64,000 bases of DNA from Sporichthyaceae bacterium (GTDB lineage Bacteria > Actinomycetota > Actinomycetes > JACCUZ01), in the NCBI GenBank assembly GCA_031365725.1, contig JANLYQ010000010.1:50238-114237 (forward strand). The letters are read 5' to 3'. The first letter of the stretch is position 1; every line of letters begins with the position of its first letter. Below, one piece after another: positions 4,322-54,491 of this stretch. Below the pieces are notes generated by a model, which was given only the letters and a program-made list of their open reading frames with translations, searched no databases and was not told the origin of the DNA. The translations under genes were made by a program, and so were the position numbers.

Positions 4322-5740
4322 GTGGCGAGCACGCTGGCCGAGAAGGTCTGGGAAGCCCACGTCGTCCGTCGGGTGGCCGGCGAGCCGGACCTGCTCTACA
4401 TCGACCTGCACCTCGTGCACGAGGTCACCAGCCCGCAGGCGTTCGACGGGCTCCGGCTGGCCGGACGACCCGTGCGACGCCCCGACCTCACCCTGGCCAC
4501 CGAGGACCACAACGTCCCCACCCAGAACATCGACCTCCCGATCGCGGACCCTGTCAGCCGGATCCAGGTCGACACCCTGCGGGCCAACTGCGCGGAGTTC
4601 GGTGTCCCCCTGCACTCCCTCGGCGACACCGAGCAGGGCATCGTGCACGTCGTCGGACCGCAGCTCGGTCTCACCCAGCCCGGCATGACCGTGGTGTGCG
4701 GCGACAGCCACACCTCGACCCACGGGGCCTTCGGTGCACTCGCGTTCGGCATCGGCACCAGCGAGGTCGAGCACGTGCTGGCCACCCAGACGTTGCCTCT
4801 CACGCCGTTCCGCACCATGGCGGTGACCGTCGAGGGCCAGCTCGCGCCGGGGGTCACGGCCAAGGACCTGATCCTCGCGGTCATCGCGCGCATCGGCACC
4901 GGGGGCGGCCAGGGCTATGTCATCGAGTACCGCGGCGAGGCCATCAGGTCGCTGTCGATGGAAGCCCGCATGACGGTGTGCAACATGTCGATCGAGGCGG
5001 GTGCCCGGGCCGGCATGATCGCCCCGGACAACACCACGTTCGACTATCTCGCGGGGCGACCGCGTGCACCGAAGGGTGCCGACTGGGACGCCGCCGTCGA
5101 CGCCTGGTCGTCGCTGCGCACCGACGACGACGCGACCTTCGACCACGAGGTCGTGATCGATGCGACCGGGCTGACGCCGTTCGTCACCTGGGGCACGAAC
5201 CCGGGGCAGGGCCTGCCACTGTCCGCGTCGGTGCCCGACCCTGCCGCGATCGCCGACGAGCAGGAGCGGTCGGCCGCCGAGCGAGCCCTGGAGTACATGG
5301 GGCTGGTGCCCGGTACGCCGCTGCGTGAGGTGGCGGTCGACACCGTGTTCCTCGGCTCCTGCACCAACGGACGCATCGAGGATCTCCGAGCCGCAGCCGA
5401 CGTCCTGCGGGGCCGTCGGGTGTCTGACGGGGTGCGGGTGCTGGTCGTGCCCGGCTCGGTGCGGGTGCGTCTGCAGGCCGAGGCGGAGGGTCTCGACACG
5501 GTGTTCACCGACTCGGGAGCCGAGTGGCGCAACGCCGGCTGCTCGATGTGCCTGGGGATGAACCCCGACCAGCTCGCTCCCGGTGAGCGCAGCGCCTCGA
5601 CGTCCAACCGCAACTTCGAGGGACGTCAGGGCAAGGGCGGCCGGACCCACCTCGTGTCGCCGCTGGTCGCGGCGGCCACCGCCGTCACCGGCCACCTGTC
5701 CTCACCCGCCGACCTACCGGCGCTCGAGGAGATGAGCTGA
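4322..5740 (+). CDS. leuC: 3-isopropylmalate dehydratase large subunit
   Basis: Conserved LeuC sequence. The start is GTG at 4322 ([13 protein letters not shown]...), preceded by the RBS agggag. The ORF-track start at 3551 is an antisense read-through overlapping the IclR gene. Confidence 0.9.
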
Positions 5741-5741
5741 C

Positions 5742-6329
5742 GTGGAGCCCATCACCAGCCATACCGGACGGGCGGTCGCGTTGCGCCGCTCCAACGTCGA
5801 CACCGACCAGATCATCCCCGCCGTCTACCTCAAGCGGGTGACCCGCAGCGGGTTCGAGGACGGGCTGTTTGCTGCCTGGCGCAAAGACCCGGACTTCGTC
5901 CTCAACCGACCAGAGGCGCGCGGGGCCACGGTGCTGGTCGCCGGTCAGGACTTCGGCACCGGCTCGTCACGCGAGCACGCCGTATGGGCATTGCGGGACT
6001 TCGGTTTCCGCGTCATCGTCTCGTCGCGGTTCGCCGACATCTTCCGCGGCAACGCCGGCAAGGGAGGGCTCGTCGTGGCGGCGATTGCGCAGGAGCACGT
6101 CGAGGCGCTGTGGTCGGCCATCGAATCCGACCCGACGACCAAGGTGACCGTCGACCTGGAGAGTCGCACCGTGTCGTGGTCCGGCACCTCGGTGCCCTTC
6201 GCCCTCGACGACTACACCAGGTGGCGGTTGATGGAGGGCCTCGACGACGTCGACCTGACCCTGCGCCACGAAGACCTGGTCAGTGAGTTCGAGTCGCACC
6301 GGCCGCTCCACCTTCCCCGGACTGTCTGA
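5742..6329 (+). CDS. leuD: 3-isopropylmalate dehydratase small subunit
   Basis: 195 aa. GTG start 2 bp after the leuC stop. Typical LeuD sequence ([17 protein letters not shown]). Confidence 0.9.
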
Positions 6330-6426: not shown

Positions 6427-6523
6427 AACGCCGTCCGCGGTGTTTGTCTCGACGCGTGCTTGCGCCTAACGTCGGCCTCGAATCGAGCGTTTGCTCGACC
6501 TCCGCATCCTCAAGGGGTTCCTC

Positions 6524-29028: not shown

Positions 29029-29168
29029 GCCGGCGACGCCTTCCGGGCTTACCGTCGTACGTCGCCCGACGGTCACGTGATCTCGCTCACCCCGTGGGCG
29101 TGGCGCCACGCCGAGGCGCCCGCGCAGGACCGGCGTACGGCCGGACTGTGGCTACCGTGGAGGGGGTG

Positions 29169-29459
29169 ATGACCATCATCGTTTTCCAGCTGGCAATGGG
29201 TCTCGTCGCCCTGCTCGTCGTGGGTGTCGTGGCCGTCCTCTACCGCGGCCGCCAGATGGCCGAGTCCGGCCGGCTGCCTGCCGCACCGATGCACAAGCTC
29301 TCCGACACCATGACGGCGATGGCCGGCAAGGTCCTCCCCGGCGACGCTCCGCCGCTCGGCGTGCTCACCAGCCCGGAGAAGTCCCGGGCGATGTCGGCCC
29401 GCTTCGAGCGCGCCGAGACCAGCGTCCGTCGCCTGGTCGGCACCGCGCCCCGACCCTGA
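29169..29459 (+). CDS. Hypothetical small membrane protein
   Basis: ATG with RBS ggaggggg. One TM helix (TIIVFQLAMGLVALLVVGVVAVLY). Confidence 0.4.
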   Translation: MTIIVFQLAMGLVALLVVGVVAVLYRGRQMAESGRLPAAPMHKLSDTMTAMAGKVLPGDAPPLGVLTSPEKSRAMSARFERAETSVRRLVGTAPRP

Positions 29460-29529: not shown

Positions 29530-29618
29530 GTACCCACGAACACACAGAAGCCGCTGATTCAGGTTCTGCTGAGCGTGCACCCAGCGGCCCGTCCCCACTT
29601 CTGTGTGCTCGCCGGTAC
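29530..29618. repeat. GTAC-bounded ~90-bp palindromic element, copy 1
   Basis: 21-bp imperfect terminal inverted repeats gtacccacgaacacacagaag ... cttctgtgtgctcgccggtac (perfect 10-bp core cacacagaag/cttctgtgtg) around a 47-nt interior containing gagcgtgc. Confidence 0.6.
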
Positions 29619-29750
29619 ATCGAGCCCGCCGAGGCCGACGAGGCCGACCCGCTGATCTTCGCCCTCTCGCACGCGGACCAGCTCCCCGAGTGGCGGAACC
29701 TGGCTGCTCGCCCCCATCCAGCGGCGGAAGGTGGTCGTCGGCAGCGTCGA

Positions 29751-29840
29751 GCGGCGACCAGGTTCCGCCACTCGTCGACCGCGACGACCAGGTTCGGCCA
29801 CTCGTCGGCCGCGACGACCACGGGCCGCCAGTTGCGGTGT
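29751..29840. repeat. 3 x 30-bp tandem direct repeat (third unit degenerate), plus an upstream inverted 16-mer at ~29688-29703
   Basis: Units gcggcgaccaggttccgccactcgtcgacc / gcgacgaccaggttcggccactcgtcggcc / gcgacgaccacgggccgccagttgcggtgt. gagtggcggaacctgg at 29688-29703 is the exact reverse complement of ccaggttccgccactc in unit 1. Confidence 0.5.
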
Positions 29841-29865
29841 CCGTGTGGCGGGCGGAGTGATGGGC

Positions 29866-29955
29866 GTACCCACGAACACACAGAAGCAGCGGTTCCGGGT
29901 CCTGTTGAGCGTGCGCCCCGGCGGCTCGTCCCCGCTTCTGTGTGTTCGTCGGTAC
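29866..29955. repeat. GTAC-bounded ~90-bp palindromic element, copy 2
   Basis: gtacccacgaacacacagaag ... cttctgtgtgttcgtcggtac with one TIR mismatch. Interior has ctgttgagcgtgcgccccggcgg, homologous to copy 1. Confidence 0.6.
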
Positions 29956-30034: not shown

Positions 30035-31192
30035 GTGATGGCCACTCTCACTCTTGTCCTCGTCCTTGCCGTGCTGGGCCTGCTCGTCCTTGTCGGTGGC
30101 GGCATCGGCCTCTACCGCGGCACGCGGCGGCGGGGGAGCAACCGGCTCGGCACCGGCACGCTGACCGGGCCCGACCTGACTCCGGCGGAGACCAGCGGTC
30201 CTGACGGCAGCACCGGCGCTGGCACCGTCGTCGACGATGGCCCGCGCACCGAGACCCCGACGCCCGTCGCCGGCCGGATGGGACGGCTGCGCGCTCGCCT
30301 CGGCCGGTCCCAGGGCTCGCTCGGCCGCGGCCTGCTCGGCCTGCTCTCCCGCGACACCCTCGACGAGGAGACGTGGGAGGAGGTCGAGGACGTCCTGCTC
30401 ACCGCTGACGTCGGTGTCGGTCCGACCCAGGAGCTCGTCGGTCGGCTGCGCACCCGGGTCCGCGAGATCGGCACCCGCGACCCGGCCAGCGTCCGCCCCC
30501 TGCTCCGCGAGGAGCTGCTGAGCCTGGTAGGCGTCGACAGCGACCGCTCCCTGCGCACCACGGGGACCGAGGGTCGCCCAGCGGTGGTCCTCGTGGTCGG
30601 AGTGAACGGCACCGGCAAGACGACCACGGTCGGCAAGCTGGCCCGCGTGCTGGTCGCCGACGGGCGCACCGTGCTCCTCGGTGCTGCCGACACGTTTCGC
30701 GCGGCTGCCGCTGACCAGCTGGCCACCTGGGGCGAGCGGGTCGGAGCCCCCGTCGTCCGCGGGCCGGAGGGCGGCGATCCCGCCAGCGTGGCCTTCGACG
30801 CCGTCAAGCAGGGCGGCGAAGGCGGCTACGACGTGGTGCTGGTCGACACCGCCGGCCGGCTGCAGAACAAGGTCGGGCTGATGGACGAGCTCGGCAAGGT
30901 CAAGCGCGTCGTGGAGAAACACGGACCGGTCGATGAGGTGCTGCTCGTCCTCGACGCGACAACGGGCCAGAACGGCTTGGTCCAGGCGCGCGTCTTCGCC
31001 GAGGTCGTCGATGTCACCGGCATCGTGCTGACCAAGCTGGACGGCACCGCTAGGGGCGGCATCGTCGTGGCCGTCCAGCGCGAGCTCGGGGTGCCGGTCA
31101 AGCTCGTGGGTCTCGGCGAGGGCGCCGATGACTTGGCACCCTTCGACCCTGAGGTCTTCGTCGACGCCCTGCTGGACGTCGACCCGAGCTGA
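30035..31192 (+). CDS. ftsY: Signal recognition particle-docking protein FtsY
   Basis: N-terminal membrane anchor, acidic linker, NG domain with GVNGTGKTTT, DTAGR, TKLDG motifs. Confidence 0.9.
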   Translation: MMATLTLVLVLAVLGLLVLVGGGIGLYRGTRRRGSNRLGTGTLTGPDLTPAETSGPDGSTGAGTVVDDGPRTETPTPVAGRMGRLRARLGRSQGSLGRGLLGLLSRDTLDEETWEEVEDVLLTADVGVGPTQELVGRLRTRVREIGTRDPASVRPLLREELLSLVGVDSDRSLRTTGTEGRPAVVLVVGVNGTGKTTTVGKLARVLVADGRTVLLGAADTFRAAAADQLATWGERVGAPVVRGPEGGDPASVAFDAVKQGGEGGYDVVLVDTAGRLQNKVGLMDELGKVKRVVEKHGPVDEVLLVLDATTGQNGLVQARVFAEVVDVTGIVLTKLDGTARGGIVVAVQRELGVPVKLVGLGEGADDLAPFDPEVFVDALLDVDPS

Positions 31193-38948: not shown

Positions 38949-39518
38949 GTGGCTGTCAAGATCAAGCTGATGCGCATGGGCAAGATCCGCGCGCCGTACT
39001 ACCGCATCGTCATCGCCGACTCGCGCACCAAGCGCGACGGTCGGGCGATCGAGGAGATCGGCAAGTACCACCCCACCCAGGAGCCCTCGCTGATCGAGGT
39101 CAACTCCGAGCGCGCGCTGTACTGGCTGGGGGTCGGCGCGCAGCCGACCGAGCCCGTCGCCGCGATCCTGAAGGTCACCGGCGACTGGCAGAAGTTCAAG
39201 GGCCTGCCGGGCCAGGAGGGCACCCTGCGGGTCGCCGAGCCCAAGGCCGACAAGAAGCTGGTCTTCGAGGCAGCGGCCAAGGCATCGGCCGGCGAGCCCA
39301 AGGAGGGCGCGACGACGCCCAAGAAGAAGGCCGTCAAGAAGGCTGTTGCCCCCGAGGCTCCTGCGGCTGAGGCTCCTGCGGCTGAGGCACCAGCTGTCGA
39401 GGCTCCTGCGGCTGAGGCACCGGCTGTCGAGGCTCCTGCGGCTGAGGCACCGGCTGTCGAGGCGCCTGCTGCTGAGGCACCTGCTGCCGAGGACGACGCC
39501 CCGAAGGCCGAGGCTTAA
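38949..39518 (+). CDS. rpsP: 30S ribosomal protein S16 with a ~100-aa Ala/Pro/Glu-rich C-terminal extension containing (APA[AV]E)n repeats
   Basis: Canonical S16 core [43 protein letters not shown]... The tail is encoded by 15-nt tandem repeats at ~39353-39490. Confidence 0.85.
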
Positions 39519-50690: not shown

Positions 50691-51030
50691 CCCCGACGCC
50701 GCACAGTGACAGACCTTGGCTGAGGTCTGGGGTTGCTCACCGGTCGGTGCTCGGCTGGCCCACGTCCCGGTGCCACTGCTGCCGTGGACTGAACCCCGTC
50801 TTTCGCAGCCAGTGATCGGTGTACACACCACGCTCCGCCTCGATGGCGACCAACGGGCCCGTCGCGATCACGCACCTGTCTGGGGTGCCGAGCAACTGCA
50901 GAACTGCGTCCTCCAGCCCGGCTTGCGGCAGCGTCTCCGTGGGGGCGATGCCCCCCAGCCACGGGTGAGCCAGCGCTGGCGTGTCAGCGGAGAGGGCAGG
51001 GTACGGGACAGGGGCACTTAGGCTGCGCGG

Positions 51031-52269
51031 GTGCCTGCTGAGCCCACGACATCCGCAGTCCCCGACCTTTCGCAGGGCCGCGGTGACCGACCGGCGACGG
51101 CGCAGGAGCCGAACCCGTTCTGGGGTCCCGACTGGCCCGAGGTCCGGGAGCTGTGGCCGCTGGAGCCGACCGTGGCCCACCTCAACCACGGATCCTTCGG
51201 AGCGGTCCCGCGGTCGGTGCTCGAGGAGCAACAGTCCTGGCGGGACCGGATGGAGGTCAACCCGGTCCGGTTCTTCCGCCGCGAGCTTGCCGCCGCGCTG
51301 AGCACGGCCCGCGGTGAAGTCGCGGATTCCTTCGGTGCGCAGGAGGAGTCGCTCGCTTTCGTGTCCAACGCCACCAGTGGCGCGGGCACCGTGCTGGCGT
51401 CGTTCCCGATCGAGGCCGGCGACCGGGTCCTGCTCACTGACCACAGCTATGGCGCGGTAGCCATCGCTGCGCAACGGTTCGTGCCCGAGCGCGGCGGCGT
51501 CCTCGACACAGTGGCCGTCCCGCTGGCGGCTGATGACGCGGAGGTTGTTGAGCGGGTGCTCGCGGCGGTGGTCGACCGGACCCGGCTGGTGGTGTTGGAC
51601 CACATCACCTCACCGACTGCTCGGCGGCTCCCAGTGGAGCAGCTCATCCCGGCCTTGCAGGACCGCGACATCGCCGTGCTGGTCGACGGCGCCCATGCGC
51701 CGGGCATGATCGAGGTTCGGCTCGACGATCTCGGGGCGGACTTCTACGTCGGGAACCTGCACAAATGGGTTTGCGCCCCGCGGGGCACGGCGGTGCTGCA
51801 CGTCGCTCCGCGGTGGCGATCGCGGGTGCGTCCGCTCGTGGCGTCGTGGGGCGAGGCTGACGGCTTCCCCGCCGCCTTCGACGAGACCGGAACTGAAGAC
51901 GCGACCGCATGGCTGTCGGCGCCGCGCGCGCTACGTGCCCTGCAGCACCTCGGGCTGGAGCGCCTGCGGGCGCACAACGTGGCCCTTGTCGGTTGGGGGC
52001 AGCGGCTGGTCGCGAATGCGCTCGGGCTCAGCCCTGCTGACCTGTCGGTCCCGACCTCGCTGAGCATGGCGCTGGTGCCGCTGCCGGCAGGAGTGGCCAG
52101 CTCGACGGAGTCCGCACTGGCGTTGCAGACTCGACTGGGCGAGGAGTCGTCGGTCGAGGTGACGGTGGTCAGCTGGGGTGGGCAGGGTCTGCTGCGCGTG
52201 TCGGCCCAGGCCTACAACTGTCCGGGCGACTTCCACCGCCTCGCCGACGAACTGCCCGCCCTGCTCTGA
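51031..52269 (+). CDS. Aminotransferase class V-fold PLP-dependent enzyme (cysteine desulfurase / isopenicillin-N epimerase-like)
   Basis: 412 aa, GTG start. Motifs HLNHGSFGAVP, VLDHITSPTA, NLHKW (PLP-Lys). Confidence 0.75.
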   Translation: MPAEPTTSAVPDLSQGRGDRPATAQEPNPFWGPDWPEVRELWPLEPTVAHLNHGSFGAVPRSVLEEQQSWRDRMEVNPVRFFRRELAAALSTARGEVADSFGAQEESLAFVSNATSGAGTVLASFPIEAGDRVLLTDHSYGAVAIAAQRFVPERGGVLDTVAVPLAADDAEVVERVLAAVVDRTRLVVLDHITSPTARRLPVEQLIPALQDRDIAVLVDGAHAPGMIEVRLDDLGADFYVGNLHKWVCAPRGTAVLHVAPRWRSRVRPLVASWGEADGFPAAFDETGTEDATAWLSAPRALRALQHLGLERLRAHNVALVGWGQRLVANALGLSPADLSVPTSLSMALVPLPAGVASSTESALALQTRLGEESSVEVTVVSWGGQGLLRVSAQAYNCPGDFHRLADELPALL

Positions 52270-52318: not shown

Positions 52319-52408
52319 GTACCAACCAACACACAGAAGCTGCCATCTGGTTGTCTCTGCACGCTCGTGGAGCCACGTCAGCGCCGGCTTCTGTGTGTCC
52401 GCCGGTAC
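52319..52408. repeat. GTAC-bounded ~90-bp palindromic element, copy 3 (inverted orientation relative to copies 1-2)
   Basis: gtaccaaccaacacacagaag ... cttctgtgtgtccgccggtac. Interior carries gcacgctc, the reverse complement of gagcgtgc. Lies in the convergent intergenic between the aminotransferase and the M23 peptidase. Confidence 0.6.
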
Positions 52409-52435
52409 GCGGGCTGCCCAGTGACGGCCCGAGGG

Positions 52436-52483
52436 CCCGGGGCCGGGGGCCGGGGGCCGGGGGCCGGGGGCCGGGGGCCGGGG
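52436..52483. repeat. (CCGGGGG)n heptanucleotide microsatellite, ~7 units; G-quadruplex / i-motif-forming potential
   Basis: cccggggccgggggccgggggccgggggccgggggccgggggccgggg. Followed at ~52487-52504 by the perfect 18-bp palindrome gcgttaccgaggtaacgc. Confidence 0.8.
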
Positions 52484-52593: not shown

Positions 52594-53199
52594 TCACCAG
52601 ACGGGAAGCAGGCGCACGTGGACCCGGCCGCCCACCAGGGTCAGGGGGTCGAGGTACGTCTCGCCCCGGCGAAGCCCCCAGTGCAGGCAGGCCGCAGGCG
52701 CGCAGTGGCTCGCGACCGCCTCCAGGGTGCCGAGGGCGTGGCCGGCGACGACCCGATCACCGCGACGCACGATGGTCAGCACCGGTTCGTAGGTCGTGCG
52801 CAGCCCGCCGGGGTGTTCGACGCTGACCACCCCTCGCCCGGCCACCACTCCGGCGAAGGTCACGACGCCGGGACCGGCGGCGAGCACGAGGAAGCCGACC
52901 TGGCTGGCCAGGTCGACGCCGCGGTGCCCCGGCGCGAACGGCCCGGCTGGTGGCTGAAACCTCGTCACCACCATGGGCGGCGGGTCCAGCGGCCACTGCC
53001 ATGACCCACCGATGCCGATGCCGGTGGTGCCACTCGCACGGGTTCGGGGAGTGGGCGCAGTGACCGGGTCGGTCGCCGGTGCGGCCAGGGCGAGCACGAG
53101 GGGTACGACGGCAGCGAGGCGGTTGACCGCCCCGGTGACTCGTTGGCCTGGACCTGGGCGGCGAGGCCGGCGCTGGCGGAGGGCGAGGTCGAGGTGCAT
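52594..53199 (-). CDS. M23 family metallopeptidase (Rv2891-like), secreted
   Basis: N-terminal signal/TM (LAAVVPLVLALAAPA). C-terminal LytM-type motifs (HRGVDLA ... HLHWG-like CLHWGLRRGETYLDP). Divergent from rpsB as in mycobacteria. Start taken at ATG 53199. Confidence 0.6.
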   Translation of the reverse strand: MHLDLALRQRRPRRPGPGQRVTGAVNRLAAVVPLVLALAAPATDPVTAPTPRTRASGTTGIGIGGSWQWPLDPPPMVVTRFQPPAGPFAPGHRGVDLASQVGFLVLAAGPGVVTFAGVVAGRGVVSVEHPGGLRTTYEPVLTIVRRGDRVVAGHALGTLEAVASHCAPAACLHWGLRRGETYLDPLTLVGGRVHVRLLPVW

Positions 53200-53558
53200 A
53201 CAGCCAACCTGGCGCCGCGCAACCCCTTCGGACTGCCCGGACGCGAAGATGTGGACAACCTCGGCCACCTGGAGGCTGTGGATTTCCAGCGCCGTTGCCC
53301 ACCGACGTACACTCGGCGCAGCGTCCCGCCTCGGCGGGGCGACTTCGCACGCCCGCACACCGCCATCGACCGGCAGCAGCCGGTCACCGACGGGGGCGCG
53401 CTCACCGGTCCGCCCGACCCGCGATGGCGACGGCGGCGAGCGCACTCGCAGGCGTCAGGACGTGGACGGCCGCCCGGCCGCCCGCGAGGCAACCGATAGC
53501 GCACGTGCCCGTTCGCCCCGGCGAGCCATGAGAGGCAGGTGCAGAGACGAGAACTCAG

Positions 53559-54491
53559 ATGGCCGGCACCACCCAGGTCGTCTCGATGAAGCAGCTGCTC
53601 GAGAGCGGCGTGCACTTCGGACACCAGACCCGCCGTTGGAACCCGAAGATGAAGCGATTCTTCTTCACCGAGCGCAACGGCATCTACATCATCGACCTCC
53701 AGCAGTCGCTGTCCTACATCGACCGCGCGTACGAGTTCGTCAAGGAGACCGTTGCGCACGGCGGCTCGGTGATGTTCATCGGCACCAAGAAGCAGGCCCA
53801 GGAGGCGATCGCCGAGCAGGCGACCCGCGTCGGCATGCCCTACGTGAACCAGCGCTGGCTGGGCGGCATGCTCACGAACTTCCAGACCGTGCACGGTCGC
53901 CTGCAGCGCCTCAAGGAGCTCGAGCAGCTCGACTTCGACGACGTGGCCGGCTCGGGCATGACCAAGAAGGAGCTGCTCGTCCTGCGTCGCGAGAAGGACA
54001 AGCTCGCCAAGACCCTCGGCGGTATCCGCGACATGTCCCGCGTCCCGAGTGCGGTCTGGATCATTGACACCAAGAAGGAGCACATCGCCGTCGGCGAGGC
54101 CCACAAGCTCCGCATCCCGGTGGTCGCGATCCTCGACACCAACTGTGACCCGGACGAGGTCGACTACAAGATCCCCGGCAACGACGACGCGATCCGCTCC
54201 GTCACGCTGCTCACCCGGGTGATCGCCGACGCGGTCGCCGACGGCCTCATGGCTCGCGTGCGCACGTCCCAGGACGGGGACGAGAAGCCGGGTACGGACG
54301 GACAGCTGGCCGTCGACGAGCCGCTTGCGGCCTGGGAGCAGGAGCTGCTCCAGGGCAGCGCTGCTCCGGTGGCTGAGGCTCCGGTGGCTGAGGCTCCGGT
54401 GGCTGAGGCTCCGGTGGCTGAGGCTCCGGTGGCTGAGGCTCCGGCGGCTGAGGCACCGGCGGCCGAGCCCAGCCCCACCCCGGCCAGCTGA
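53559..54491 (+). CDS. rpsB: 30S ribosomal protein S2 with a C-terminal (APVAE)n repeat tail
   Basis: [22 protein letters not shown] core. The tail is encoded by 15-nt tandem repeats gctccggtggctgag at ~54362-54465. Confidence 0.9.

What the first reader, a model, noticed from the sequence alone, without database searches (positions are those of the whole stretch)
29530..29955. Unclassified family of ~90-bp GTAC-bounded palindromic elements, three copies in 64 kb (third copy at 52319-52408)
Each element has 21-bp imperfect terminal inverted repeats: gtacc[c/a]a[c]c[g/c]aacacacagaag on the left and cttctgtgtg[c/t]tc[g]cc/tcggtac on the right, with a perfect 10-bp core cacacagaag/cttctgtgtg. 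The ~47-nt interior shares a gagcgtgc motif. Copies 1 and 2 are direct repeats 247 bp apart upstream of ftsY. Copy 3 is in inverted orientation in a convergent 3'-3' intergenic region 22 kb away. The elements are too long and too structured for a REP, not direct-repeat MIRU-like, and not CRISPR: they are palindromic, the two adjacent copies are separated by a spacer carrying its own tandem repeats, and there are no cas genes. They are not simple terminators either, since the interior is conserved and the stems have internal mismatches. I cannot assign them to a named repeat or Rfam family from memory. Candidate interpretations are a MITE-like non-autonomous mobile element, a structured small RNA, or a protein-binding module. 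Three copies in 64 kb implies tens to hundreds genome-wide.
Basis: seen in the sequence. Interest (0 to 1): 0.65.

Follow-up and report, generated by a model that had tools for sequence, protein, structure and literature searches.

The report
Hairpin repeats linked to DUF559 nuclease
Three copies of a 90-base hairpin-forming repeat are real and unnamed, and related copies in other actinomycetes sit on both sides of a DUF559 nuclease gene, which suggests that this nuclease uses the hairpins, much as RAYT enzymes use REP repeats.

Summary
Three 89-90-bp elements (29530-29618, 29866-29955, 52319-52408) share 21-22-nt inverted arms, GTACC-N4-A[A/G]CACACAGAAG, and a perfect 10-bp core. Shuffled sequence gives 0 matches.

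No Rfam family, paper, plasmid or phage record matches. The window is from an uncultured actinomycete near Sporichthyaceae/Motilibacter.

The two copies upstream of ftsY, with their 247-bp spacer, are missing from the same locus in three relatives.

Sister families in other MAGs have the same layout: a genome-specific outer box, a small internal loop, the universal inner box AACACACAGAAG, and a 36- or 46-48-nt interior. Most lie just after stop codons.

In the MAG SD8021, two such elements bracket a DUF559/AbiEi_4 nuclease gene between crtI and crtB. Four relatives keep this hairpin-gene-hairpin layout with genome-specific arms. It recurs, with unrelated hairpin sequences, in Tsukamurella and Arthrobacter. 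Tsukamurella also has solo copies elsewhere.

Best reading: a REP/MITE-like dispersed palindromic repeat. Its likely partner, by inference, is a DUF559 nuclease, in a layout like REPIN-RAYT. The window has no DUF559 gene, and neither mobility nor mechanism has been shown.

The parts
29530..29618 (.). Copy 1, 89 bp. Left arm GTACCCACGAACACACAGAAG (29530-29550), 47-nt interior, right arm CTTCTGTGTGCTCGCCGGTAC (29598-29618).
   Evidence: RNA fold -41.5 kcal/mol on + and -52.9 on -, z -5.6 and -6.2. It starts 70 nt after the stop of the small ORF.
29619..29865 (.). 247-bp non-coding spacer bracketed by copies 1 and 2. It holds a 9-bp x3.1 tandem repeat (29621-29648), a 30-bp x2.3 tandem repeat (29751-29820) and a perfect 17-bp inverted repeat (29687-29703 / 29758-29774).
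   Evidence: It is part of the roughly 450-490 bp missing from relatives.
29866..29955 (.). Copy 2, 90 bp. Left arm GTACCCACGAACACACAGAAG, 48-nt interior, right arm CTTCTGTGTGTTCGTCGGTAC. It ends 79 nt before the ftsY start.
   Evidence: It is 76/90 identical to copy 1 in direct orientation.
52319..52408 (.). Copy 3, 90 bp. Left arm GTACCAACCAACACACAGAAG, 48-nt interior, right arm CTTCTGTGTGTCCGCCGGTAC. It sits 49 nt after the aminotransferase stop and 185 nt from the stop of the M23 peptidase gene on the other strand.
   Evidence: The identical sequence is present in two Logan assemblies, SRR20217216 and SRR20217217.

Best explanation
The three elements belong to a dispersed family of palindromic, hairpin- or cruciform-forming intergenic repeats, of the REP/MITE kind, found in a group of uncultured actinomycetes.

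Each element has four parts: a genome-specific outer box (GTACC here), a 2-5-nt internal loop, a universal 12-bp inner box (AACACACAGAAG / CTTCTGTGTGTT), and a variable interior of fixed length (36 or 46-48 nt).

Shown:
- The family exists in several genomes.
- Copies sit mostly just downstream of stop codons.
- The ftsY-upstream pair is absent from the same locus in relatives.
- Members of the superfamily bracket a DUF559/AbiEi_4 (Vsr-like PD-(D/E)xK) nuclease gene at a conserved site.
- The layout 'hairpin - DUF559 gene - hairpin, plus solo hairpins elsewhere' recurs in cultured actinomycetes.

Inferred:
- The hairpins are the cis sites of a DUF559 nuclease encoded elsewhere in the same genome. 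Its winged-helix domain would bind the inverted inner boxes, and its nuclease domain would nick or cut there.
- Copying during repair would spread solo copies.
- Solo copies would persist where a strong symmetric hairpin is tolerated or useful, that is, at gene 3' ends, where they may also stop or stabilise transcripts in both directions.
For: Reality and chance.

Sister families from a scan of 185,579 species genomes:
- MAG Co_metawrap_2689 has at least 11 copies: GATCTGCAGA-cc-AACACACAGAAG-N36-...
- MAG BP_174 has 3 copies: GATCGACC-N4-AACACACAGAAG-N36.
- MAG SD8021 has TGCACAGC-AACACACAGAAG-N36.
- Metagenome contig L088 has GTAC-N5-core-N36. L097 has a 48-nt interior with the same TGAGCGTG motif as the window.

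Core conservation. The core is intact in every arm, although interiors differ by 15-50%. In about 230 kb of actinomycete loci only one decayed arm was seen.

Position. About 12 of 20 copies lie within 50 nt after a stop codon. By type of intergenic region, 7 are convergent, 8 tandem and 1 divergent.

Absence in relatives. The small ORF-ftsY spacer is 576 bp here, against 88, 33 and 129 bp in three relatives.

DUF559 link:
- In L026 (SD8021) two elements bracket a DUF559/AbiEi_4/MTES_1575 gene between crtI and crtB.
- The same gene at the same site is bracketed by hairpins with genome-specific arms in L179, L180, L189 and L190.
- In the L179 genome, the only copies in 30 kb sampled are the two beside DUF559.
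- Tsukamurella tyrosinosolvens: two 41-bp hairpins, 93% complementary to each other, are the only two in 49 kb and 49 genes, and they sit directly on either side of the DUF559 gene. The same hairpin occurs solo elsewhere, once exactly filling a 58-bp convergent gap.
- Arthrobacter ERGS1:01 and StoSoilB13 have the same layout.

Enzyme. The DUF559 profile matches an endonuclease-like structure (3hrl) and a protein deposited as 'mobile intron protein' (3r3p).

Outer-box similarity. BP_174 (GATCGACC) and L179 (GATCGCAACC) have similar outer boxes, which links solo families to DUF559-flanking families.
Against: - There is no DUF559 gene or relic in the 64-kb window, nor next to any of the 14 Co_2689 and BP_174 loci. 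The link to the window family therefore rests on homology of the hairpins, through SD8021.
- No target-site duplication and no precise empty site could be defined, because the flanks in relatives are too diverged.
- The hairpin-DUF559-hairpin unit is stably inherited at one site in five genomes, so it is not visibly mobile there.
- The Nonomuraea locus has only a 22-nt inverted-repeat pair. E. coli ycjD shows no comparable pair.
- Only about 9 DUF559 loci were examined.
- No biochemical or expression data exist.
- Copy number in the window's own genome is unknown.
Confidence: 0.55

Rival explanations
1. It is a classical MITE: a deletion derivative of an insertion sequence, moved in trans by a DDE transposase that recognises the 21-24-bp terminal inverted repeats.
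For: - Its size (78-90 bp), terminal inverted repeats, multiple copies and intergenic position fit a MITE.
- It is absent from the orthologous locus in three relatives.
- Every subfamily ends in a 4-bp palindrome: GTAC, GATC or TGCA. This could hide a TA, AT or GC duplication of a palindromic target.
- Two copies bracketing a segment (the window spacer, the L026 gene) resemble a composite element.
Against: - There is no duplication outside the palindromic tips.
- No transposase gene or long element with these ends appears in any locus, and the window ORFs checked by Pfam are housekeeping genes.
- The best-conserved part is subterminal, while the tips differ between genomes.
- Decayed copies are almost absent.
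- Hairpins persist at one orthologous site in five genomes.
Confidence: 0.2
2. It is primarily an RNA-level element: a sequence-conserved 3' stem-loop that terminates or stabilises transcripts, or a small RNA, kept by host selection and not mobile.
For: - Most copies lie 1-50 nt after stop codons and are enriched in convergent gaps.
- In the window all three fold better on the - strand, because A.C mismatches become G.U pairs: -52.9, -53.5 and -46.2 kcal/mol against -41.5, -49.0 and -38.9.
- In both directions the 3' arm is U-rich (CUUCUGUGUGUU). Copy 2 scores as terminator-like.
Against: - No Rfam match.
- Interior pairing is not conserved in register, and the covariation term is -0.18.
- Polarity bears no fixed relation to the upstream gene. 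L016 and L019 have opposite polarity behind + genes.
- In Co_2689 the strand preference is not consistent.
- Termination cannot explain an invariant 12-bp sequence across genomes, nor hairpins in divergent promoter gaps (L026b, L188).
- There is no canonical U-tract.
Confidence: 0.15
3. They are attC-like folded recombination sites. A site-specific recombinase inserts circular cassettes at a hairpin, giving hairpin-cargo-hairpin.
For: - The stem is bipartite, with an unpaired spacer between the outer and inner boxes and a variable terminal structure.
- The position is right after ORF stops.
- Cargo is bracketed by two hairpins in direct order in the window (247 bp) and in L026 (the DUF559 gene).
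Against: - There are no RYYYAAC / GTTRRRY core sites, no integron integrase and no cassette array.
- The only tyrosine recombinase in the window is the syntenic XerC homologue.
- The neighbouring genes are core housekeeping genes.
Confidence: 0.05
4. They are chance palindromes or a purely local duplication with no wider family.
For: Copies 1 and 2 are close together and 84% identical. The source genome could not be searched.
Against: - Shuffles give 0 matches.
- Copy 3 is 22 kb away, in an unrelated locus.
- Homologous families exist in at least 4 other MAGs or contigs.
Confidence: 0.01

Closest known systems
REP/BIME (REPIN) sequences with their RAYT transposase ('REPtron') in Proteobacteria
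   Same: - Both are extragenic imperfect palindromes, repeated in the genome and concentrated after gene 3' ends.
- The sequence is genome-specific even at orthologous positions.
- A single enzyme gene, inherited at a fixed site, is bracketed by two cognate repeats, while solo repeats are dispersed.
   Different: - The bracketed gene is a DUF559/AbiEi_4 Vsr-like PD-(D/E)xK nuclease, not an IS200/IS605-type Y1 transposase.
- The elements are 78-120 bp single long hairpins with a bipartite stem, not 20-40-nt REPs paired into REPINs.
- There is no GTAG head.
- Copy numbers seem low: 5 in about 0.9 Mb of Tsukamurella.
- The hosts are Actinomycetes.
Bacterial MITEs such as Correia elements (Neisseria), ERIC/IRU and RUP
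   Same: They are about 100 bp long, have terminal inverted repeats of 20-26 bp, are intergenic and multi-copy, can form hairpins in transcripts, and vary in presence between relatives.
   Different: No target-site duplication is visible, and no parent IS is known. Conservation is highest subterminally, and the interior has a fixed length but a variable sequence.
Integron attC sites
   Same: Both are an imperfect hairpin with two paired boxes separated by an unpaired spacer and a variable terminal structure. Both lie at the 3' end of ORFs.
   Different: The attC core sequences, an IntI integrase and a cassette array are all missing.
Free-standing homing endonuclease genes of the Vsr-like (EDxHD, I-Bth0305I) type
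   Same: The bracketed protein shares the Vsr-like nuclease fold family. The profile matches 3r3p, deposited as 'mobile intron protein'; equating that entry with I-Bth0305I is from my own knowledge. Such genes are selfish and site-specific.
   Different: The gene is not inside an intron or intein. It is flanked by complete palindromic repeats rather than by split target halves, and it is stably inherited at one chromosomal site in five genomes.

Membership tests
REP/REPIN-RAYT system | A short extragenic imperfect palindrome repeated in the genome | tested here: met
   There are three copies in 64 kb, all intergenic. Sister families have 3 to 11 or more copies.
REP/REPIN-RAYT system | A REP unit of about 20-40 nt with a conserved 5' GT[A/G]G head, usually paired as an inverted doublet | tested here: not met
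   The elements are single 78-90-bp hairpins with 21-24-nt arms. The tips are GTAC, GATC or TGCA, and there is no GTAG.
REP/REPIN-RAYT system | A cognate RAYT (Y1 transposase) gene flanked by the repeats | tested here: not met
   Where the repeats flank a gene, that gene is DUF559/AbiEi_4, not Y1_Tnp. No transposase was found among the window ORFs scanned. Not every window ORF was scanned.
REP/REPIN-RAYT system | The repeat sequence is genome-specific at orthologous positions | tested here: met
   The crtI-DUF559-crtB site carries different arms in L026, L179, L180 and L189/L190.
MITE | Terminal inverted repeats and a small non-coding body | tested here: met
   Arms of 21-22 nt that are 82-95% complementary, a total length of 89-90 bp, and no ORF.
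MITE | A direct target-site duplication flanking each copy | tested here: inconclusive
   There is no duplication outside the arms. A 2-4-bp duplication could be hidden in the palindromic tips. No alignable empty site was found.
MITE | An autonomous IS with the same ends and a transposase | tested here: not met
   None was found in any fetched locus or in the window. Whole genomes could not be searched.
MITE | Presence/absence polymorphism between relatives | tested here: met
   The pair upstream of ftsY is absent in 3 of 3 relatives. These relatives are only about 90% identical in FtsY, so this is not strain-level evidence.
Integron attC | R''/R' core sites (RYYYAAC / GTTRRRY), a nearby IntI and a cassette array | tested here: not met
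   The sequences lack these cores. The only integrase-family gene is the syntenic XerC homologue, 2.5 kb from copy 3 and also present in relative L110.
CRISPR array | Regularly spaced direct repeats with unique spacers of similar length, and cas genes | tested here: not met
   The units are palindromic. There are only two adjacent copies, 247 bp apart, and a third lies 22 kb away. No cas domain was found among the ORFs scanned.
Canonical intrinsic terminator | A GC-rich stem with a 3-8-nt loop followed by a U-tract | tested here: inconclusive
   The consensus scan flags only a small inner stem of copy 2, using the U-rich right arm as the tail. It finds nothing for copies 1 and 3.
Any Rfam RNA family | A covariance-model match at gathering score | tested here: not met
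   The window has 0 matches. In E-value mode nothing falls on the elements. The sister loci and DUF559-flanking loci also have none.

The most novel reading that the evidence does not exclude
AbiEi_4-DUF559 proteins are a very common class of actinomycete 'endonuclease domain-containing' proteins of unknown function. In this reading they are the trans-acting partners of genome-specific palindromic repeat families.

Each nuclease gene sits between two cognate hairpins, and the same hairpins are dispersed as solo copies. The window's GTAC-bounded elements would be such solo copies.

This would be a second, independently evolved system of the REPIN-RAYT type. It would be built on a Vsr-like PD-(D/E)xK nuclease instead of a Y1 transposase. 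It would also give DUF559 a function.
Probability: 0.35. Interest if true: 0.8.

Novelty: new variant of a known kind. Interest (0 to 1): 0.55.

Why it matters
By itself the element is one more small palindromic repeat family, in an uncultured lineage.

What raises its value is the repeated layout 'hairpin - DUF559 nuclease gene - hairpin, plus solo hairpins' in distant actinomycetes. If that link holds, three things follow:
- A large domain-of-unknown-function family gets a concrete, testable role: a nuclease that recognises repeats.
- The repeat-plus-domesticated-enzyme principle, known from REP/RAYT in Proteobacteria, is extended to high-GC Gram-positive bacteria with a different enzyme fold.
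- The conserved, genome-specific hairpins seen after actinomycete genes get an explanation.

Tsukamurella tyrosinosolvens is cultured and has only about five copies, so it would be a practical test organism.

Tried and rejected
- Rfam at gathering and E-value thresholds gave nothing on the elements. Only a spurious miRNA-like hit fell on the spacer hairpin.
- Literature searches for the core sequence, for actinobacterial MITEs and for DUF559 found nothing relevant.
- BLAST of copy 2 against plasmid and phage records gave only chance fragments.
- Source contig. The exact-protein look-ups either failed or returned only two 1.8-kb Logan contigs with the identical copy 3. Copy number and a cognate DUF559 gene therefore could not be checked.
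- Collection scans. Most genome and metagenome hits to the core pattern were unrelated hairpins in other phyla; I estimate about 17 sites by chance in the genome collection. Viral scans with arm patterns gave only single-arm chance hits.
- Empty site for copy 3. The nearest aminotransferase homologues are at most 70% identical, and the relative has a cupin gene in that gap.
- Target-site duplication. None could be derived from the flank alignments.
- Pre-existing palindromic target. The outer boxes never occur alone in the sister loci.
- DUF559 relic in the 247-bp spacer. It was looked for by tblastn, Pfam and a custom profile, all negative.
- RNA structure with covariation in the interior is not supported. 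Only the outer and inner stems are consensus.
- More DUF559 loci. The viral collection has none. Plasmid records gave only four distant loci.
- E. coli ycjD showed no comparable hairpin pair.
- Extended similarity beyond the hairpin in the pairs L017/L029 and L004/L019 was examined. The neighbouring genes are unrelated metabolic genes and include no transposase.

Full report
**1.

The window carries three 89-90-bp elements at 29530-29618, 29866-29955 and 52319-52408. Each has 21-22-nt inverted arms that are 82-95% complementary.

The paired-core pattern CACACAGAAG-N30-60-CTTCTGTGTG occurs three times, against none in 100 shuffles. The arm pattern with up to three mismatches finds exactly the six arms, where 0.07 are expected. 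There are no solo or decayed arms elsewhere in the window. All copies fold much better than shuffled sequence, both as RNA and as DNA.

Copies 1 and 2 are direct repeats, 76/90 identical, and 247 bp apart. The spacer has its own 30-bp and 9-bp tandem repeats and a perfect 17-bp inverted repeat.

One detail needs correcting. By arm asymmetry all three copies have the same + orientation: the left arm is A/C-rich and the right arm reads GTACCGGCG in reverse complement. A whole-element alignment slightly favours direct orientation for copy 3. Only the interior GAGCGTGC motif is reversed.

**2. Context and organism.**

Copies 1 and 2 lie between a conserved small ORF (29094-29459) and ftsY (30035-31192), downstream of smc. 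Copy 3 lies between a convergent class-V aminotransferase gene (51022-52269) and an M23 peptidase gene (52594-53454, - strand).

The other window ORFs checked by Pfam are housekeeping genes. The only recombinase is a XerC homologue in conserved dprA-xerC-whiG synteny.

The closest proteins come from uncultured 'Actinomycetes bacterium' MAGs. Related contigs carry names such as Sporichthyaceae, and Motilibacter is a more distant cultured relative. The source contig could not be retrieved. Two Logan assemblies hold an identical copy 3.

**3. Not a named family.**

Rfam gives nothing on the elements at any threshold. The core sequence appears in no relevant paper. BLAST against plasmid and phage records gives only chance fragments.

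**4. Absent in relatives.**

In three relatives with about 90% FtsY identity (local BLASTP alignments covering 80-87% of the query), the small ORF-ftsY spacer is 88, 33 and 129 bp. Here it is 576 bp. So the two elements and their spacer are specific to this lineage.

The flanks are too diverged to define an exact boundary or a target duplication. For copy 3 the nearest homologues are at most 70% identical, and the relative examined has another gene in that gap.

**5. A superfamily with a universal inner box.**

A scan of one genome for each of 185,579 species found no GTAC-type copy. It did find clear sister families:
- MAG Co_metawrap_2689, at least 11 copies: GATCTGCAGA-cc-AACACACAGAAG-N36-CTTCTGTGTGTT-ct-TCTGCAGATC.
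- MAG BP_174, 3 copies: GATCGACC-N4-AACACACAGAAG-N36.
- MAG SD8021: TGCACAGC-AACACACAGAAG-N36.

Metagenome contigs add L088 (GTAC-N5-core-N36) and L097 (a 48-nt interior with the same TGAGCGTG motif as the window). The remaining hits are unrelated hairpins, at roughly the number I estimate for chance.

The common plan has five parts:
- an outer box that is conserved within a genome and differs between genomes;
- a 2-5-nt internal loop with conserved mismatches;
- an invariant 12-bp inner box;
- a few variable base pairs that extend the stem;
- an interior of fixed length but loosely conserved sequence.

The cores are intact in every arm, although interiors differ by 15-50%. Decayed arms are almost absent from about 230 kb of loci. 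This points to constraint on the core rather than neutral decay. RNAalifold supports only the outer and inner stems, and the interior pairing is not conserved in register.

**6. Position.**

With rough gene calls, about 12 of 20 copies lie within 50 nt after a stop codon. By type of intergenic region, 7 are convergent, 8 tandem and 1 divergent. Polarity, as defined by arm asymmetry and interior, has no fixed relation to the upstream gene. The neighbouring genes are unrelated metabolic genes.

In the window the - strand folds better, because A.C mismatches become G.U pairs. This bias is not consistent in the sister family.

**7. The DUF559 link.**

In SD8021 (L026), two elements bracket a 331-aa gene with AbiEi_4, DUF559 and MTES_1575 nuclease domains. 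The gene is inserted in the opposite orientation between crtI and crtB. The genome scan detected only one perfect-core element in that MAG, and it is the one beside this gene.

Four related genomes have CrtI 78-85% identical to L026. They carry the same gene at the same site, again with a hairpin on each side, but with genome-specific arms:
- L179: GATCGCAACC-ggg-CCACAC.
- L189/L190: GATCGCAAC-tcg-CCCCCACA.
- L180: CACACAGTC and CACACA cores.

In the L179 genome, 30 kb sampled hold only the two copies beside the nuclease gene.

I then chose loci purely by distant homology (about 30% identity) to this protein in annotated records. The layout recurs with unrelated hairpin sequences.
- Tsukamurella tyrosinosolvens. 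Two 41-bp palindromes (TGCGGTGGAT-N21-ATCCACCGCA) are 93% complementary to each other. They are the only two in 49 kb and 49 genes, and they sit directly on either side of the annotated DUF559 gene. Elsewhere in that strain the same hairpin is solo. One copy exactly fills a 58-bp convergent gap and another lies in a divergent gap.
- Arthrobacter sp. ERGS1:01 and StoSoilB13 show the same bracketing. The ERGS1:01 hairpin occurs at seven places in its 754-kb record.
- Nonomuraea has only a 22-nt inverted-repeat pair around the gene.

The protein profile matches an endonuclease-like structure (3hrl) and a protein deposited as 'mobile intron protein' (3r3p), which I recall to be a Vsr-like homing endonuclease. 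The outer boxes of BP_174 (solo copies) and L179 (DUF559-flanking copies) are alike, which ties the two kinds of copy together.

**8. Interpretation.**

Four features are the hallmarks of REP/REPIN-RAYT systems, here with a different enzyme fold and a different repeat architecture:
- a single enzyme gene inherited at a fixed site;
- bracketing of that gene by two cognate palindromes;
- repeat sequences that are genome-specific even at an orthologous site;
- solo copies dispersed after gene 3' ends.

I therefore read the window's elements as solo members of such a family.

The steps shown are family membership, position, absence in relatives, and the recurrent bracketing of DUF559 genes.

The steps inferred are:
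- that the window genome has a cognate DUF559 gene;
- that its winged-helix domain binds the inverted inner boxes (by analogy with AbiEi operators, from my own knowledge);
- that nuclease action spreads copies;
- that solo copies also act as bidirectional transcript-end hairpins, since the 3' arm is U-rich in both directions.

The main weaknesses are these. There is no DUF559 gene or relic in the window or beside the 14 other solo loci. No target duplication or empty allele was found. Few DUF559 loci were examined. There are no functional data.

**9. Rivals.**

- Classical MITE with an undiscovered DDE transposase. This remains possible. The palindromic tips GTAC, GATC and TGCA could hide a short duplication.
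- Purely RNA-level terminator or stabiliser, or a small RNA. The position fits, but this does not explain the invariant core, the lack of orientation bias, or the copies in divergent gaps.
- attC-like recombination site. The fold is similar, but every defining sequence and gene is missing.
- Chance. This is excluded.

**10. Verdict.**

This is a real palindromic repeat family that had no name. In kind it is REP/MITE-like. It carries a specific and testable link to DUF559 nucleases that I did not find described in the library searched.

Noticed in passing
window 52429-52483: A tandem repeat, CCGGGGG x7.9, lies 20 nt after copy 3 in the same convergent gap. Both Logan assemblies of this organism break inside it.
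   Followed up: partly
window 29687-29703 / 29758-29774 and 29751-29820: The spacer between copies 1 and 2 holds a perfect 17-bp inverted repeat with a 54-nt loop, overlapping a 30-bp x2.3 tandem repeat. It occurs nowhere else in the window or in the fetched loci. Its only Rfam hit is a spurious miRNA model (E = 0.12).
   Followed up: partly
L100, L103, L104, L105 (IMG/VR); L031, L054, L069, L075, L085, L087 (metagenomes): A separate hairpin family uses the same 10-nt core: cacCACACAGAAG-N52-59-CTTCTGTGTGgtg, with variable interiors. It occurs in phage-like contigs of about 0.6 GC. Several copies have the flanks ggcctggaa.agacaggcac / gtgaatgcgcag. No Rfam family covers it.
   Followed up: partly
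L026 1508-1537; L180 1811-1842: The DUF559 ORFs read through the right arm of the downstream hairpin and stop in its interior. Their last residues, TQ[K/R]AA, are therefore encoded by the conserved hairpin core.
   Followed up: partly
L026 ~2465-2475; L179 ~6489-6497; L180 ~2771-2779; L189 ~5591-5599: A motif, CTGTGGACA, is conserved 15-35 nt before the hairpin on the start-codon side of the DUF559 gene in all related genomes. It could be an operator or promoter element, or a conserved CPQ coding segment.
   Followed up: no
L017 2373-2396: A truncated extra left arm (GATCTGCAGACCAAACACAGCAG) lies directly upstream of a complete element. It is absent from the paralogous copy in L029.
   Followed up: no
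L004 1180-1343 vs L019 365-480; L017 2475-2540 vs L029 225-290: Some Co_2689 copies share 50-200 nt of extra similarity on one side of the hairpin, always the same side by polarity, although their neighbouring genes are unrelated. The repeated unit may be longer than the hairpin in some subfamilies.
   Followed up: partly
L189 4523-4554 vs L190: Two near-identical genomes differ by a 32-bp indel in a C-rich tandem repeat between crtI and the first DUF559-flanking hairpin. The hairpins themselves are identical.
   Followed up: partly
window 39354-39492 and 54363-54467: There are long in-frame tandem repeats inside coding regions. The first has a 15/30/60-bp period (GAGGCACCTGCTGCT). The second is 15 bp x7 (GCTCCGGTGGCTGAG), at the 3' end of the ribosomal protein S2 gene.
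   Followed up: no
L192 (E. coli K-12) 5041-5828: E. coli ycjD has the DUF559 domain only. Downstream it has a 90%-identical 39-nt duplicate of its own 3' end and G/C-rich inverted repeats (ACCCTCTCCCCAGAGGGGCGAGGGG). Upstream it has a perfect 17-bp inverted repeat. There is no matching hairpin pair like the one in actinomycetes.
   Followed up: partly
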